Positions 666 to 13,251 of a stretch of 64,000 bases of DNA are shown here, in pieces; positions within the stretch are counted from its first letter, which is position 1, and each line of letters opens with the position of its first letter. A program made the position numbers and the translations under genes. This DNA comes from Octopus sinensis (Eukaryota), in the NCBI RefSeq assembly GCF_006345805.1, contig NC_042999.1:112530001-112594000 (forward strand), read 5' to 3'. The notes beneath the pieces are model-generated. The model searched no databases, was not told where the DNA came from, and was given only the letters and a program-made list of their open reading frames with translations.

Positions 666-3165
666 ATGGAACAAATAACAATAGAAGCATCATTAAAAGA
701 TATACCGATTCCACCAAAAGATGTATATCTAAAAGAAGTGATTGCAAAATTAACAAACTTCACCCACCATTTACGATGGAAAGCTTTATTCTACGATAAA
801 AATAACCAGAGATTACTTATCACAATAGCAAAGGCTTTTCCGAAGGAATTTTCAAAACTAGATAAACACGCCCACCAAACAGCCACCTGGACGCCTTTGA
901 GAACGAACTATGGGATACTATTAAGAACTTAACATTTAAACGACACCCACTAAGGAATAATACTCACCAAAGAAGCTTAAAGGACCGACTACACAAACTG
1001 AAATCGCAAAAGGGAATTATTGTACAGTCTGACAAGACCAGGAACTCATATAATTTGGATATTAATTAATACTACCAGCTGTTGCATAAAGAAATGACTA
1101 AAAAATACAAAATAGTGCCTTATAACACTTTAAGATCTTTGAACTTATCTGCCAAGAAGATTATGACCACCAACAACATAGAAGAGAAAACTGAACCTTT
1201 CGCACCCTCCAGACCCTGCATAACAATTAAGGACCATAAAGAAAATTTCTTAACAGACATGAAAGTTAGACTAATCCGCCCTAATAAATCAGATCTATGT
1301 AAGCTAAGTAAATTAATCTTAGATAAATATATTCCTACTATAAAAAACAAAATCACTCTAGAATTAAGGTCAAATACCCACGACGTCCTTAATTGGTTCT
1401 CCAATATACAGAATAAAAATAGTTATAAGAATTACAACTCATCAATTAACCCTACGATTCTAAATAGCGTTCTGATGTTCGCAAAAAAACATGCAAAATT
1501 AACAATGAATGAAATTAAGGTGATCATAGAAGCTAGGAAATCTATAATAAAATTCGATAACAAACTATGGGTAAGGAAGGACACCCCTAATTATTCCGAC
1601 ATCATTATGGGGGTCCCGGACTCAGCACAGGTATATGATTTAGGGGGTATTTACCTATTATCACATTTACACGAAGAATTCCCAGATTAGAGGAGGCCTT
1701 TACAGAGACGATGCATTATTTATCCTTAAAAATACCTCAAATAGGAGACTTGAACTACTAAAGAAAAAATTATATAAGTTCTTTAAACAGTTTGGATTAA
1801 CCATCACAATAGGAAAAGAGCATAATTCTATTAACTATTTAGATGCCAATTGTAATTTAACCACTGAATTACATGAGCTGTACGTTAAACCGAATACCAA
1901 CTTCAAACACCTAAACTTTACAAAAAGAGGACTTGTACAGGCCATTAGTAAAAGAATTTCGTATCTCTCGCCCAACGCTTATGTTCAATAAGTATAAGGA
2001 ACACTACAACATTGCATTGGAAAAAGCAGGTTATAAGCAAAAATTAAGTACCTTCATTCAGAGCCTTATAAAAATAACCCGAATAACATAAATATCCATA
2101 ATTATTGAAATAGGAATAATAGCCAAAATATCTATAATAATAATCACAAAAACAATAACAATAACAATAATAGTGGTAATAATAAAAATAGTAGGAAGAA
2201 TAATAAGGTTCATAATAATATTAATAACAACATTAGACATGATAACGATAGAAATACTAATAATGGGAATGATAACAATAACAGAAAAAAAAATAATAAT
2301 AATAATAATAATAATAATTAAAATTATACACATAAAAGAACCAATAAAGTCCCAGTTAGTAATTATAATATCAAGGTAAATAAAATAAATCGAATAAGAA
2401 CAACCTTACCAAAGCTGATAGCAATAGTAATAAAAATAACAATAGAAAGAAGAAGAATTATAACTATAACTTTACGATCTACACTAATACTGAGGTCAGT
2501 TTTTACACCAAAAACAAAAATATCAAAATTAACAAGCGGAATAAAGATAACATCTGGCTAATAATCACCTTCGCGATGCAACTAAAAACCAATATAGTTA
2601 AATCTATAATGAAAGTTATAATTACGCACTTCAATATGAATGCAAAATACTCAGAAATCTTTAGCAATAAAATTAGAGTAGGTCATAGCCTAACTTGTAA
2701 CCTAGCTACTATCATAGCCTCTATCAACAATAAAAAGCTTCTATGAAACTAGGAAGAATAACAGTAAAAAGCACAACAACCAATTGATTGATATAATAAA
2801 TGATCCCCAAAATAACTCGCCCTCTAAAAATTCGGAAAACCACCTTATGATAATCCTCCCACCATATCATAGGCACAGATAATCTTATTAATCTATGTAG
2901 TTGCAGAGATAAAAATACTTGTGAATTCTTGAATAAATGTAAAACTAAAAATATAATCTACCAATGTGATGTATTCTCTAATAATTACAAGAAAAACTTA
3001 TATAGGAGCAACTAAAAATGAAATGAAACTTAGGTATAATTCCCATCGCTCAAGTTTAAGAAATAGAAGTAAGGCTAACTCTACCGGATTAAGTAGTTAC
3101 ATCTGGGAACTGAAAGGCAATAACATTAATTATATATTAGAATGGCGTATCCTGGCCAAAATATA
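666..3165 (+). mobile_element. Degenerate Penelope-like retroelement, Naiad-like (RT + GIY-YIG), with stops and frameshifts
   Basis: RT motifs MGVPDSAQVYDLGGIYLL and GLYRDD (~1607-1712); Asn-rich linker; CSCRDKNTCEFLNKC (CxCx5Cx5C) then NIIY..YIGATKNEMKLRYNSH..TGLSSYIW (GIY-YIG) at ~2895-3160. Confidence 0.85.
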
Positions 3166-6456: not shown

Positions 6457-7445
6457 AGAAAATAGTAAAAAGTGAAAAAACTACAGAAGGCTTAAATGTT
6501 AAAAAATATATATTTGCATCAATATGTCTGAAGAATATTAAAAAAATTTTTTCCCTCTTATAATGACATAGTTTTGAAGAAAGACCGGTTTCGCATTTAG
6601 CTTTTCAAATTTCTTACGATGTTGTGTTTATGTTCAATAGAGTTATCGTTATGTTTATGTTCAAAAGAGTTCTAAATAAGGGGAGGTAATGAGTGATTTC
6701 TTCCGGTGTAAGGGAGATAATCGCTTAAAAATGTTTTCCTTTCCCTTGGTGTGAATTTCTCTGTATCAGTATGTTGGCATGGTTAAATCTGGGCTTGTAC
6801 TTTTCAATGAAGAATGTTTCCTTGTTTAGTCTAATTTGTGTTGATGATCCGATAGCACATTGGTAAAATGGAAAGATTAAAAATTGTGGTAGTAGTTGCT
6901 TTGCGCATTTCTCAATGTGCTCACTAAAAGGTATCATTCTGTATTCTGGGAATGCAATCTGTTGTCGATGCAATGTGCATCTACGTCTGAGTGATAGTCC
7001 CGTGGATCCCACGTAGTCTTGGTGGCAGCCCGAGCATTTTATGACATAAATTATGTTTTCAGAGGCACAAGTAAAGTTAGATTTGATCTTGAATTTCTGT
7101 CCCTCTTTAAAGAGGAATTCTGATCCTTCTAGCAGGTTTGGACATGTTGCACAGTTCGATCTACCACATTTTTTTACTTTTGCATCCGTAATTTCAGAAG
7201 ACAATTTTGCCTTTGTGAGAATCTTTTTAAGTGATTTGGGTTGTTTGTAGCTTTTAATGATTTGGTGTATGTTTAGAATTTCCTTTAATTTGGGGTCCTT
7301 ATGAAGTATTGGTAAATTCTGGGTGATGATGGTGAAGGCTTCTTTGTTTCTGGGGTTGTATGTAGATATGTAAGGTAGTATTTTCGGGGAAGGTGTGTTG
7401 TTGTGTTGAACTTTTCTTAAAGTTTCTATGTTGATTTCTGTGCCT
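6457..7445 (-). mobile_element. 5'-truncated Penelope-like element, Neptune-like: linker Zn-finger + GIY-YIG endonuclease + 3' pLTR
   Basis: ORF 6725-7489(-): KCGRSNCATC..FTCASENIIYVIKCSGCHQDYVGSTGLSLRRRCTLH..ETFFIEKY; inserted in (TA)n. Confidence 0.9.
6577..6615 (-). ncRNA. Minimal type I hammerhead ribozyme, U3-A8 variant
   Basis: Reverse complement reads AAGAAA-U-UUGAAAA-GC-UAAAU-GC-GAAA-CCGG-UC-UUUCUU. Confidence 0.7.
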
Positions 7446-8052
7446 CTGAAAACATAATTTATGTCATAAAATGCTCGGGCTGCCACCAAGACTACGTGGG
7501 ATCCACGGGACTATCACTCAGACGTAGATGCACACTGCATCGACAACAGATTGCATTCCCAGAATACAGAATGATACCTTTTAGTGAGCACATTGAGAAA
7601 TGCGCAAAGCAACTACTACCACAATTTTTAATCTTTCCATTTTACCAATGTGCTATCGGATCATCAACACAAATTAGACTAAACAAGGAAACATTCTTCA
7701 TTGAAAAGTACAAGCCCAGACTTAACCATCCCAACATACTGATACAGAGAAATTCACACCAAGGGAAAGGAAAACATTTTTAAGCGATTATCTCCCTTAC
7801 ACCGGAAGAAATCACTCATTACCTCCCCTTATTTAGAACTCTTTTGAACATAAACATAACGATAACTCTATTGAACATAAACATAACATCGTAAGAAATT
7901 TGAAAAGCTAAATGCGAAACCGGTCTTTCTTCAAAACTATGTCATTATAAGAGGAAAAATTTTTTTTAATATTCTTCAGACATATTGATGCAAATATATA
8001 TTTTTTAAACATTTAAGCCTTCTGTAGTTTTTTCACTTTTTACTATTTTCTA
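7439..8052 (+). mobile_element. Inverted copy of the Penelope 3' end (inverted pLTR)
   Basis: Near-identical reverse complement of 6457-7068; ORF 7496-7783 repeats the GIY-YIG C-terminus. Confidence 0.92.
7893..7931 (+). ncRNA. Minimal type I hammerhead ribozyme, U3-A8 variant
   Basis: Stem I aagaaa/tttctt, core ttgaaaa, stem II gc/gc, gaaac-cg-gtc. Confidence 0.7.
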
Positions 8053-8086
8053 TATATTCAACCACGTGCTTTCACAAACCAACTTT

Positions 8087-8129
<43 letters not shown>

Positions 8130-8607: not shown

Positions 8608-8762
8608 TATTAGAGACAAAACCACTATTTTGCAAAACAAACAAGGAAAGACTTAATCAATACATAAAATTTTAATAAAATTTATTAAAATTTTATGTAT
8701 TGATTAAGTCTTTCGTTGTTTGTTTTGCAAAATAGTGGTTTTGTCTCTAATAATATTTTATA
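8598..8762. repeat. Near-perfect ~165 bp palindrome within (TA)n
   Basis: aaaatattattagagacaaaacc... / ...ggttttgtctctaataatatttt, centre ~8680, one visible mismatch. Confidence 0.92.
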
Positions 8763-9420: not shown

Positions 9421-12400
9421 ATAATGTTCGTCCTTCAGGTTCGAGGATTATCATTGACATCAATTGGTGGAATTGCTGCTATGAGACCGGAGGTGGCTGG
9501 TGAGGCCAATCCGGGCAAGAAAGCCCCTCCCACAGGTGGGGCAGAAGTGAGTAGGGGCTGTGCTATTGGTGCAGGTGGCTCTGGCTTTCCGCATCTGGCG
9601 TTTCTGTTCTGCTGACTGAATCCGTCTCTCCTCGGCTGTCTTTGCTCCTGTGGTGATTGCGCTGCGCCAGGATGAGCGGTCGGCAGCAAGTGTCTCCCAA
9701 GTCTCTGTGCCGATAGAGAAGTCTTTGAGAGAGACTTTGAGACTGTCTTTGAAGTGCTTCTTCTGCCCTCCGACTTTGCGTTTGCCCTGGCTGAGTTCAC
9801 CGTAGAAGAGCTGTTTTGGGATGCGAGTGTTGGACATGCGAGAGACGTGGCCTGCCCATCTCAGCTGGGCCTTGCGCATGATCGTGATGGTGCTAGGGAG
9901 ATCTGCCTGCTTCAGAACTTCCGTGTCTGGGACTTTGTCCTGCCAGCGGATGTGAAGGAGGTTCTGAAGACACCTAAGGTGGAAGTGGTTTATCTGGCGC
10001 TCGTGCCTTCGGTAAGCAGTCCACGTCTCGCAGCCGTATAGTAGGGTGGTAAGCACAACTGCCCGGTAGACTTTCAGCTTGGTGTTGAGGCTGATTCCTC
10101 TCCGCTCCCAGACTTTCTTTCGCAGTCTCCCAAACGCGCTACTTGCCTTGGAGATTCTGTTGATGATTTCAGCATCTATGTTGGCATTGCAGGAGAGAGT
10201 GCTGCCCAGGTAGGTGAAGTTTTCCACTTCGGTTTTCTTGGCACTGATGATGAGACCGATATTGTCACAGGCTGATGAGAACCTGTCCATCCCGAGCTGC
10301 ATATCCTGCTCATCGATTGCGTTAAGGGTGCAGTCATCAGCAAAGAGAAAGTCTCTGACGACTGTCTCCCTCACAGTTGAAAAATTTCCCGTCCGTCCTG
10401 TACTTGATGTCGATACCAGACTTGCAGTCCCTGAAGGCATCGGACAGCATTGCCGAGAACATGATGCTGAACAGTATTGGGGCCAGGACACAGCCCTGCC
10501 TGACTCCGTTGGTCACCTGGAAGGCTTCAGATGAGTTGCCGTCTTCAAGGACTCTGGCTATCATTCCGTCGTGGAACTGGCGGACAATTGCAATAAATTT
10601 GCTGGGGCAACCAAATTTTCCCATGACCTTCTAGAGTCCCTCCCGACTGACTGTATCTAAAGCCCTGGTGAGGTCAACAAAGGTCATGCAGAGGTCAAGG
10701 TGCTGCTCCATGCATTTCTCCTGGATCTGGCGGGCGGCGAATATCATGTCAGTGGTCCCTCGACCCGCGCGGAAGCCACACTGGCTCCAAGTGTTCCAGA
10801 AGGCGGTCAAGCAGGACTCGGGCCAGGATCTTGCCTGCTATGGACAAGAGGGAGATTCCTCGGTGGTTGTCGCAGGACTGCCGATCTCCTTTCCGCTTAT
10901 AAATGTGGACGATTGTTACGTCCCAGAAATCTTGAGGGAGTTGTTCCCTGTCCTACTTCGACTGGAACAGGCTGGTGAGCTGACTGATCATGGTGGGGCC
11001 GCCCGACTTGAACACCTCTGCAGGGATGGCATCAGAGCCTGGCGCTTTGCCGGTGGACATTTTTTTGATGGCTCTGCTCACTTCCTCGACTGCAGGGGGA
11101 ACAGCTAGCTCGTGGTTTGTCGGCACCTGGGGGAGTCGTGCGATGGCTTCCTCGTTGATCTGGGCTGGTCGGTTGAGCACGATGTTGAAATGCTCCACCC
11201 ATCTCTCCAGGATCAGCCTCTTGTTAGTCAGGAGTGAGATTCCATCCAAGCTGAGCAGGGGAGTTGATCCAAAGGACTGCGGTCCATAGACAGCTTTCAG
11301 CGCCTCGTAGAATTTCTTGGTGTCGTGTTTGTCTGCGTATCCCTGAATCTCATCCGCCTTGGCGCTTAACCATGCGTCTTGCATGAGGCGGAGTTTTGCC
11401 TGGACTGTGCTGCGAATGTTGTTGAAAGCAGCCTTCTTTGCCGTGCGGGTGGTGTCATTTTGGTGGGCCCGCAACAGACGGCGTTTCTCTTCCAGGAGCT
11501 TTTGGATTTCCTGGTCGGTTTCGTCGAACCAGTCTTGGTGGTTCCTCGTAACTTGGCCTAGAGTTTCAAGGGCGATGGAATGAACCGTGTCCCTGAACGA
11601 TTCCCACTGCTCATCGATGCTGGACTGGTCATTCCGAATGTCCAACAGCTTGCTGTCCATACATGACTGGAGATCTTGTGCAGTCAGCTGGTTCTTTAAT
11701 TTCGTGATGTTAAGCTTCCTCGTCACTTTCTGACCCTGTGGTCTTCTCTTAGGTTGGATGTAGAAATCCATCCTGGAGATGATGAGGCGATGGTCCGTCC
11801 AGCAATCAGCTCCACACATGGCTTTGACCAGTCTCACGTCCCGCCTGTCTTTCGCCCTGACGATGACGTAATCTATCAGATGCCAGTGTTTGGAGCGTGG
11901 ATGCATCCATGATGTCTTGTTGCGTGTTGGCAGACGGAACAAGGAGTTGGTAAGATCATGAGAGGCGCACACCCGCAGGAGGAGCTGCCCGTTGTTGTTG
12001 CACTTTCCGATTTCTTGCTTTCCCAGTACGCGATGCCAGGCTTGGTGGTCAGTCCCGACACGGGTGTTAAAGTCCCCAAGGAGGATGAGCTTCCCAGGCT
12101 GGGCTGACGTGATGAGGGAGTCGAGTTCCTCATAGAACCTGTCCTTAACTTCTTCAGGGTTGGTCATGGTGGGGGCGTAAGCGCTGATAATGGTCGCACT
12201 AGTCTTATTTCCAAGTGGGAGTTGCATCTTCATCAGCCGATCGTTGATACCCTCGGGGGAGCTTTCCAGTTTCCGCACGTGTACTGACTTGATGGCAAAA
12301 CCAACACCAGCCTCACGACGCTCTTCGCTGCTGCAACCACTCCAAAAAAAAGTGTAGCCGCCGCCCGTCTCTGTCAGCTGGCCTTTGTCCGCAATGCGGG

Positions 12401-13251
12401 TCTCGCTCAGTGCTGCGATATCGACATTGTATCGGCTCAGTTCTCTGGCCACCAGGCTCGTCTCTCTGCTTTGGTGTTGTCAAGCAGAGTTCTCACGTTC
12501 CAAGTTGCGAAAGTGAGCACCTTTGTTCGTTTTCTTTCTTTGTTTCGACCGCTTGGAAAGGATCCCCACCAGCCGCGGTTTGCTGACCAGGGTGTGGTGA
12601 GGCAGGCTATGTTTAGGGCAACCTTTTCTAGCCCCGTCCTCATGCTGTGGAGGCGAGCAGAGCGATCCTGAAGAGGGCTGCTCGGTCACTCAGGAGGCTG
12701 CCAGACTCCACTGCTGCCTCAGTTCAGTGAGGGGCGACCACATGTCCTAAGCCGCCTGTGTGTGGGTTCACGACTGCAGCTCCCAGTGTATCCTCACCTG
12801 CTACTTCGCCGTTTCCCCATCGCCACAGGACTTTGTGATGTTGGTGTCATGATGTCATGACGTGCACGTGACTTGGATTATAGTGAGGGTGACTTGCGCA
12901 GGATCAGCCTCACTCTCTCGTCCTGGTGCACCGGATCCAGTGGCAAGACAAAGTCAAGACGCCTGGGGGTAGACCAGGATGCAGGAGCTGCCGGAAGGTG
13001 GCACGCATGACGCAATCCAACCCCCGTAGGGGCTCCACTCCAGATTTATGTAGGTTTTTGGGTGGCCATTGACTCATGAGAGAGTTCCTCTGCCCTTTGA
13101 CAGGTTTTGTTTTTAGTCCTGCTGGGTGTCCAAATCACCCTCCTCATCAAGAAATCTTGGTGGGGTTGCCAGTTTAGTCGCCAACGACCCGACCATGTAA
13201 CAGGTTGTACTGGGTTACATGTTATCAGTAGCTCCAAGCAGAGACCTGACA
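9421..13251 (-). mobile_element. Near full-length RTE-clade LINE (APE + RT + C-terminal CCHH finger), frameshifted with small deletions
   Basis: TFATWNVRTL, IAALSETR, GVGF, SAYAPT, LGDFN, IDY, TDH (APE); KAPGSD, GVRQGCVLAP, LFADD, YLGS, LRWAGHVSRM (RT); CPTCGRGFLARIGLTSHLRSH; ~600 bp 5' UTR. Confidence 0.95.

What the first reader, a model, noticed from the sequence alone, without database searches (positions are those of the whole stretch)
7893..7931. Minimal hammerhead with compensatory U3-A8 core in a young Neptune-like pLTR
Seen: core UUGAAAA replaces CUGANGA, with a perfect 6-bp stem I, a 2-bp stem II and GAAAC-CG-GUC; both pLTR copies are identical here. Known: positions 3 and 8 base-pair in the active HHR fold, so C3U plus G8A preserves the pair. 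Inference: a functional rare variant that standard CUGAnGA searches miss.
Basis: partly seen in the sequence, partly recalled or inferred. Interest (0 to 1): 0.75.

Follow-up and report, generated by a model that had tools for sequence, protein, structure and literature searches.

The report
Penelope hammerhead, known U3-A8 core
This 39-base motif is the hammerhead-shaped RNA signal of a very abundant Penelope-type jumping gene; its unusual U-A core pair is shared by the whole family and is already in print, and this copy has also lost one stem base, so it is predicted to cut itself weakly if at all.

Summary
The motif is real. It lies in the 3' UTR/pLTR of a 5'-truncated Neptune-like Penelope element, and U3-A8 is the family state: 1,950 exact genome matches against 3 for C3-G8, reversed-pattern control 0. 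It is neither new nor rare. Natural U3-A8 cores were published in 2011, and in Penelope minimal hammerheads in 2014, including the same UUGAAAA heptamer. Here they outnumber C3-G8 under one descriptor. This scan has noted U3-A8 hammerheads in octopus-like genomes before. Two corrections: U7899 is left unpaired between stem I and the core, because this subfamily lost A1.1, which sister subfamilies keep; and the two window copies are inverted arms of one insertion, so their identity shows nothing and they cannot dimerise in cis. Across subfamilies the hammerhead layout is conserved while the flanks drift. A tree shows A1.1 lost and later regained, and a nested U3·G8 clade. C3·A8 mismatch families also amplified, and insertion junctions do not pile up at the cut site. 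Cleavage is untested; weak dimer- or protein-assisted cutting is most likely.

The parts
7893..7931 (+). Minimal type I hammerhead motif, U3-A8 core, 2-bp stem II, palindromic ACCGGU stem III region, GUC triplet; predicted cut between 7925 and 7926
7899..7899 (+). Unpaired U (position 2.1) whose partner A1.1 is missing in this subfamily and present in sister subfamilies
6577..6615 (-). Identical hammerhead motif in the other arm of the inversion
6457..7441 (-). 5'-truncated Penelope-like copy: end of RT, CX4CxxC linker, GIY-YIG endonuclease (open frame ends at 6725), 3' UTR with hammerhead, ending in (TA)n
   Evidence: 96.5% to residues 581-811 of the RT-EN frame of L064
7439..8088 (+). Inverted 5'-truncated copy (inverted pLTR) joined head to head through about 3 nt of microhomology (7439-7441), ending in (TA)n
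8052..8088 (+). About 37-nt 'tail' extension present at one end only, typical of Penelope-like insertions
   Evidence: a tail is seen in 43 of 100 sampled copies; described in PMC8557442

Best explanation
The motif is the pLTR hammerhead of a high-copy Neptune-like Penelope retroelement family; U3-A8 is inherited by the whole family, and the motif likely works in intact tandem elements as a slow self-cleaving RNA that is predicted to need a second copy or the element's own protein to fold. Shown: the location (about 110 nt after the endonuclease stop codon; about 190 nt before the start codon of the next tandem unit), the family-wide core, and conservation of the hammerhead layout while the flanks drift. 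Inferred: two same-strand copies pair through the palindromic ACCGGU to form a 6-bp stem III, and cleavage after GUC or GUA would trim the 5' end of element RNA. The window's subfamily lost A1.1, which leaves an extra U next to position 3 and is predicted to slow cleavage further. The two window copies are truncated and on opposite strands, so they are most likely inert passengers.
For: 1,950 exact U3-A8 matches against 3 C3-G8, control 0. In the first 100 of 2,462 copies picked by a 3' anchor outside the hammerhead, 74 keep the region: position 3 is U in 72 (2 rows are mis-registered deletions, none C), position 8 is A in 65 and G in 9, N17 is A, C or U and never G. Across 8 subfamilies, 0 of 16 hammerhead positions not fixed by my search pattern vary, against 59 of 192 flank positions (Fisher p = 0.007). 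The tree on upstream sequence (83 rows) puts 7-bp-stem forms at the base, the window in a grade that lost A1.1, and a regain of A1.1 inside a GUA clade (clade support 100, nested 84-98). The designed dimer scores -12.9 kcal/mol, near the cofold minimum of -13.5, against -2.5 for the monomer. One locus (L256-L258) holds 5 identical junctions of a 389-394-nt unit that starts at the predicted cut site (0/+1). Published: minimal Penelope hammerheads cut weakly, as dimers (PMC4209133); the anole element's hammerhead cuts only with its protein (PMC11167929).
Against: No cleavage data. Insertion junctions are not enriched at the cut site: about 0.38% per base in the 4-nt window against 0.33% at a control site. 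Subfamilies without A1.1 amplified well (36 of 74 sampled copies). A U3·G8 clade has support 100, and C3·A8 mismatch families are multi-copy (11 and 7 rows among the first 100 of 205 matches), so the 3-8 pair is not strictly kept. Covariation in a 7-row alignment did not beat shuffles (204 of 500). A full pairwise scan of one hammerhead found rescue only for the G3-C8 swap (PMC9901934, passages). Insertions beside position 3 impaired saltern hammerheads strongly (PMC3088659).
Confidence: 0.62

Rival explanations
1. The hammerhead-shaped sequence is kept for a role other than cutting (folding or protein-binding element, promoter or reverse-transcription signal in the pLTR), and cleavage is negligible, at least in the subfamilies that lack A1.1.
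For: Loss of A1.1, U3·G8 and C3·A8 forms all amplified. No junction pile-up at the cut site. In GUA variants the computed best dimer fold pairs A17 into stem I rather than leaving it free (-15.1 against -13.1, and -15.5 against -14.1 kcal/mol). In the anole element, hammerhead-dead mutants inserted normally in vitro and no RNA-seq reads ended at the cut site (PMC11167929).
Against: Every subfamily-level change seen stays within what hammerhead catalysis allows (N17 never G, position 8 only A or G opposite U3, catalytic G12 and the U4-G5-A6 turn unchanged). A1.1 appears to have been regained. One tandem array starts at the cut site.
Confidence: 0.33
2. Local decay of a canonical CUGAnGA hammerhead, or a chance match.
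For: Rfam gives no hammerhead hit; the monomer fold is not better than shuffles.
Against: U3-A8 is the state of 1,950 exact genomic matches with control 0, and no C3 was seen in 74 copies sampled without regard to the core.
Confidence: 0.02

Closest known systems
U3-A8 minimal hammerheads of Schistosoma mansoni Cercyon Penelope-like elements (Cervera and De la Pena 2014, PMC4209133)
   Same: Type I minimal hammerhead in the pLTR, U3-A8 core (the supplement row S. mansoni(4) has the same UUGAAAA heptamer), G10.1-C11.1 pair, palindromic stem III region, opposite-strand pairs in truncated copies.
   Different: Here stem II has 2 bp rather than 6-8, there is no extra nucleotide between A9 and G10.1, stem I is 6-7 bp, and the window's subfamily has an unpaired U between stem I and position 3.
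Natural hammerhead core variants (Perreault et al. 2011, PMC3088659)
   Same: U3-A8 covariation, 2-bp stem II and extra nucleotides next to position 3 (2a/2b) are all described.
   Different: The 2a/2b insertions were reported only from salterns and are 2 nt in the tested case; here a 1-nt equivalent arose by loss of the partner base in an animal retroelement.
Neptune/Nematis-type C-terminal-endonuclease Penelope-like elements (Craig et al. 2021, PMC8557442)
   Same: RT followed by a CX2-5CxxC linker and a GIY-YIG with two cysteines between the motifs, (TA)n targets, inverted 5'-truncated copy, 30-40-nt tail, hammerhead near the 3' end.
   Different: Clade placement by RT phylogeny was not tested; full-length copies have two overlapping frames.
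Hammerhead of the anole Poseidon element PAc (PMC11167929)
   Same: pLTR hammerhead of an endonuclease-bearing Penelope-like element; model for protein-assisted cleavage.
   Different: PAc has C3-G8 and overlaps the start codon; here the core is U3-A8 and lies about 190 nt upstream of the start codon.

Membership tests
Type I hammerhead ribozyme (minimal, Penelope-type) | Core U4 G5 A6 N7, A9, G12 A13 A14, A15.1-U16.1, H17 | tested here: met
Type I hammerhead ribozyme (minimal, Penelope-type) | Watson-Crick pair between positions 3 and 8 | tested here: met
   U7900-A7905; family state in 65 of 74 sampled copies, U·G in 9
Type I hammerhead ribozyme (minimal, Penelope-type) | Stem I abutting the core (1.1-2.1 pair) | tested here: not met
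   U7899 is unpaired in the window's subfamily; met in 38 of 74 sampled family copies
Type I hammerhead ribozyme (minimal, Penelope-type) | Stem II closed by G10.1-C11.1 | tested here: met
   2 bp; the G-C pair is kept in 7 of 7 aligned relatives
Type I hammerhead ribozyme (minimal, Penelope-type) | Palindromic stem III region allowing a dimer | tested here: met
   ACCGGU self-duplex -8.3 kcal/mol
Type I hammerhead ribozyme (minimal, Penelope-type) | Covariation supporting the stems | tested here: inconclusive
   1 double-sided change among 13 pairs, not above shuffles; conservation against flanks p = 0.007
Type I hammerhead ribozyme (minimal, Penelope-type) | Site-specific self-cleavage | not testable with these tools
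   Only assembled contigs were offered; the indirect junction test gave no enrichment
Rfam hammerhead families | Covariance-model match | tested here: not met
   No hammerhead hit at E<=10 on 7850-7980
Penelope-like element, C-terminal endonuclease | RT followed by GIY-YIG with two cysteines between the motifs | tested here: met
   L064 frame: RVT_1 E 2e-7 above cut-off; GIY-YIG only weak (E 0.067; 0.0099 for the window piece); GxKF, DKG and the cysteine-bearing GIY-YIG motif found
Penelope-like element, C-terminal endonuclease | Tandem or inverted pLTR structure with tail | tested here: met
Neptune clade | CX2-5CxxC linker between RT and endonuclease; (TA)n targets | tested here: met
   CX4CxxC present; 99 of 100 sampled copies have (TA)3 or more within 80 nt after the 3' anchor (the element's own end holds a short TA run, so this count is generous)
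Neptune clade | RT phylogeny with Neptune rather than Nematis | not tested
   No reference sequences of the clades were at hand; the linker is shared with Nematis (PMC8557442)

The most novel reading that the evidence does not exclude
This family is a natural record of a hammerhead walking across its own fitness landscape: a U3-A8 ribozyme that lost its first stem I pair (a 2a-type bulge), kept amplifying because the element's protein or a dimer rescues folding, switched to a U3·G8 wobble in one lineage and regained the lost base in another, in a genome where U3 cores outnumber the textbook C3-G8 core.
Probability: 0.3. Interest if true: 0.55.

Novelty: new member of a known kind. Interest (0 to 1): 0.28.

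Why it matters
As reported, little: the core swap and its link to Penelope-like elements are in print. The useful residue is practical. Searches for CUGAnGA miss most such motifs in this genome, and the family offers four natural, closely related versions (with and without A1.1, U-A or U·G, GUC or GUA). Side-by-side assays of these could address the open question of whether Penelope hammerheads need to cut at all.

Tried and rejected
Rfam scans found no hammerhead. RNA evidence: no RNA holder on record was listed; only contigs of guessed RNA or unknown runs could be laid, and they cannot show ends, strand or level. They showed no joint matching a possible intron from the GTAAG at 7891 to the CAG near 7980, so that idea was dropped as unsupported. 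Cut-site footprint: the junction pattern gave 23 hits; I dropped 9 internal-duplication variants, 1 mutated copy and 2 repeats of one locus, leaving 11 independent junctions, 10 of them at or just after the cut (one ambiguous through stem I microhomology). The control pattern upstream gave 24 hits; I dropped 5 indel variants and 3 repeats, leaving 16. Per-base rates were about equal (0.38% against 0.33%), and the control junctions also cluster locally, so I do not count this as a footprint. An earlier GC-rich control gave 8 hits. In the 100-copy sample 5 of 56 called breakpoints lay within 5 nt of the cut; several calls were distorted by inverted partners. The first tree was discarded because truncated rows gave false long branches. 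Fisher tests on genome-wide core counts are not used, since copies are not independent. The strict-core test is partly circular, so only the 16 positions not fixed by the pattern are cited. Papers not held: Lunse et al. on dimeric Penelope hammerheads and Przybilski and Hammann 2007; either may hold further U3-A8 data.

Full report
Observation. The 39 bases at 7893-7931 have the layout of a type I minimal hammerhead: AAGAAA, one U, core UUGAAAA (positions 3-9), a 2-bp stem II with a 5-nt loop, GAAAC, CG, GUC and UUUCUU. An identical copy lies on the minus strand at 6615-6577. Rfam finds no hammerhead here and the monomer folds no better than shuffles (z -0.22).

Context. The two copies are arms of a head-to-head inversion, about 1% apart. 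The minus arm is a 5'-truncated Penelope-like element, 96.5% identical to residues 581-811 of the RT-endonuclease frame of L064. That frame has RVT_1 above cut-off, GxKF and DKG motifs, a CX4CxxC linker and a GIY-YIG with two internal cysteines. Both ends sit in (TA)n and only the plus arm has the 37-nt tail. These are the features given for Neptune/Nematis-type elements in PMC8557442 (passages seen). The clade was not tested by phylogeny. Because the arms come from one insertion and lie on opposite strands, their identity is uninformative and they cannot form a dimer in one transcript. Same-strand tandem copies exist elsewhere (7 locus rows, some overlapping), and in L070 the motif lies about 190 nt before the start codon of the next unit. 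The host is likely an octopus; this is my inference from genome size and repeat content, not a tool result.

U3-A8 is the family state. The family pattern has 1,950 exact matches with U3-A8 and 3 with C3-G8; the reversed control is 0 for both. To avoid selecting on the core I took the first 100 of 2,462 copies matched by a 3' anchor (all on one contig, some pairs from one insertion). Of these, 74 keep the region: U3 in 72 (2 mis-registered), A8 in 65, G8 in 9, N17 A in 38, C in 34, U in 2, G in none; A1.1 is present in 38 and absent in 36. Contigs of runs from four other organism labels hold the family, and among the 40 differences listed (18 more not shown) the only one inside the motif is in loop II.

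It is not rare or new. With one general descriptor the genome gives C3-G8 420 matches (control 50), U3-A8 with N7 not A 1,198 (69), U3·G8 583 (90) and C3·A8 205 (47), besides the 1,950 above. These are copies, not events, and the descriptor fixes C15.2 and a 2-nt loop III. PMC3088659 (passages) reports U3-A8 in several natural hammerheads and says such pairs were already shown active in vitro. PMC4209133 (parts 1-2 of 4 and searched supplement) reports about 1,300 U3-A8 minimal hammerheads in S. mansoni Penelope elements; its alignment lists the same UUGAAAA core and a UUGAAGA (U3·G8) row for Saccoglossus. A search for hammerhead, octopus and ribozyme listed 7 papers, none on cephalopod hammerhead cores by title or abstract (listing only). 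Earlier notes of this scan report U3-A8 motifs in octopus-like genomes several times; a look-up by sequence found no note on this family.

What the family history shows. On a tree of 83 copies built from upstream sequence and rooted on one distant relative, basal rows have A1.1 and a 7-bp stem I. The window belongs to a grade that lost A1.1. Nested in that grade are a U3·G8 clade (support 100), in which GUC later became GUA (99), and a GUA clade (100) in which A1.1 is present again (84-98). The basal order rests on few rows and moderate support, the rows were chosen by similarity or motif, and recombination could mimic the regain. Across 8 subfamilies none of 16 hammerhead positions left free by my pattern varies, against 59 of 192 flank positions (p = 0.007), and 4 of 5 loop II positions vary. 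A separate ~360-nt repeat family has C3-G8 and U3-A8 members that are 86-91% identical over up to 350 nt, a true double change between close relatives.

Results against strict function. C3·A8 mismatch forms are multi-copy (11 and 7 rows of two types among the first 100 listed). Covariation in a 7-row alignment did not beat shuffles. In GUA forms the best computed dimer pairs A17 into stem I; the parallel with the known C3-G17 trap (PMC3884650, passages) is my inference. A pairwise scan of one hammerhead rescued only G3-C8 (PMC9901934, passages). Two-base insertions beside position 3 impaired saltern hammerheads (425-fold slower in 4 M LiCl than a consensus ribozyme). For the anole element, the hammerhead cut only with protein, its mutants still inserted, and no reads ended at the site (PMC11167929, parts 1-2 of 4).

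Footprint test. Eleven independent junctions fell in the 4-nt window, 10 at or just after the cut, but a control site gave 16 over 7 nt and the per-base rates were equal (0.38% against 0.33%). One locus is suggestive: L256-L258 holds five junctions of a 389-394-nt unit that runs from the cut site (0/+1, one base ambiguous) to about 180 nt into the ORF and lacks the core, as repeated copying of a cut RNA would give. It is a single event.

Mechanism. Most likely the motif is a slow ribozyme of intact tandem elements. Two copies would pair through ACCGGU (-8.3 kcal/mol; designed dimer -12.9 against a cofold minimum of -13.5), possibly helped by the element's protein, and trim the RNA 5' end. Location, family state and conservation are shown; dimer, cleavage and role are inferred. 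The window's form is predicted to be weaker than its A1.1-bearing sisters, and the window copies are likely inert.

Verdict. A real feature and a new member of a known kind; the advertised novelty is published. Interest 0.28, resting mostly on the natural series of variants that could be assayed side by side.

Noticed in passing
L061:2473-2560 +, L064:2386-2470 +, L066, L068, L070:6523, L139, L155, L255: Long copies have two overlapping frames (about 170 nt of overlap, -1 relation) with an in-frame U UUU UUA slippery heptamer just before the conserved RT N-terminal motifs, kept in all 7 distinct stretches found. Likely a programmed -1 frameshift; PMC8557442 Fig. 1 mentions a frameshift with pseudoknot in some Penelope-like elements without my seeing which clade.
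   Followed up: partly
L256-L258 (G000:C12162): Tandem and inverted array of a 389-394-nt unit that begins at the predicted hammerhead cut site and ends about 180 nt into the ORF; looks like reiterative copying of a short or circular RNA.
   Followed up: partly
G000; L080, L091, L099 against L110, L111, L120, L128: A ~360-nt tandem repeat family without a detected Penelope ORF has C3-G8, C3·A8 and U3-A8 members with otherwise near-identical hammerheads.
   Followed up: partly
L133-L142: A young multi-copy subfamily of this element carries a U3·G8 wobble core, with RT-EN pieces mostly 90-98% identical to L064.
   Followed up: yes
window 53341-53312, minus strand: A second, weaker hammerhead-like motif (UUGAAAA, extra A, GU..CU, GAAACCGGUA) with poor stems; perhaps a decayed copy of another family.
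   Followed up: no
window 9460-12479, minus strand: Broken LINE with AP-endonuclease and RT pieces, probably of RTE type (recalled resemblance).
   Followed up: partly
window 1070-1900, plus strand: Decayed frame with RT-like motifs that recall a distant Penelope-type RT; no significant match to this family or to Pfam.
   Followed up: partly
window 8613-8747: 135-nt near-perfect palindrome flanked by (TA)n, possibly the head-to-head stub of another element (seen as weak microRNA-model hits).
   Followed up: no
L070:3180-6040: An intact-looking LINE (865-aa RT frame) inserted in the first frame of a full-length copy of this element.
   Followed up: no
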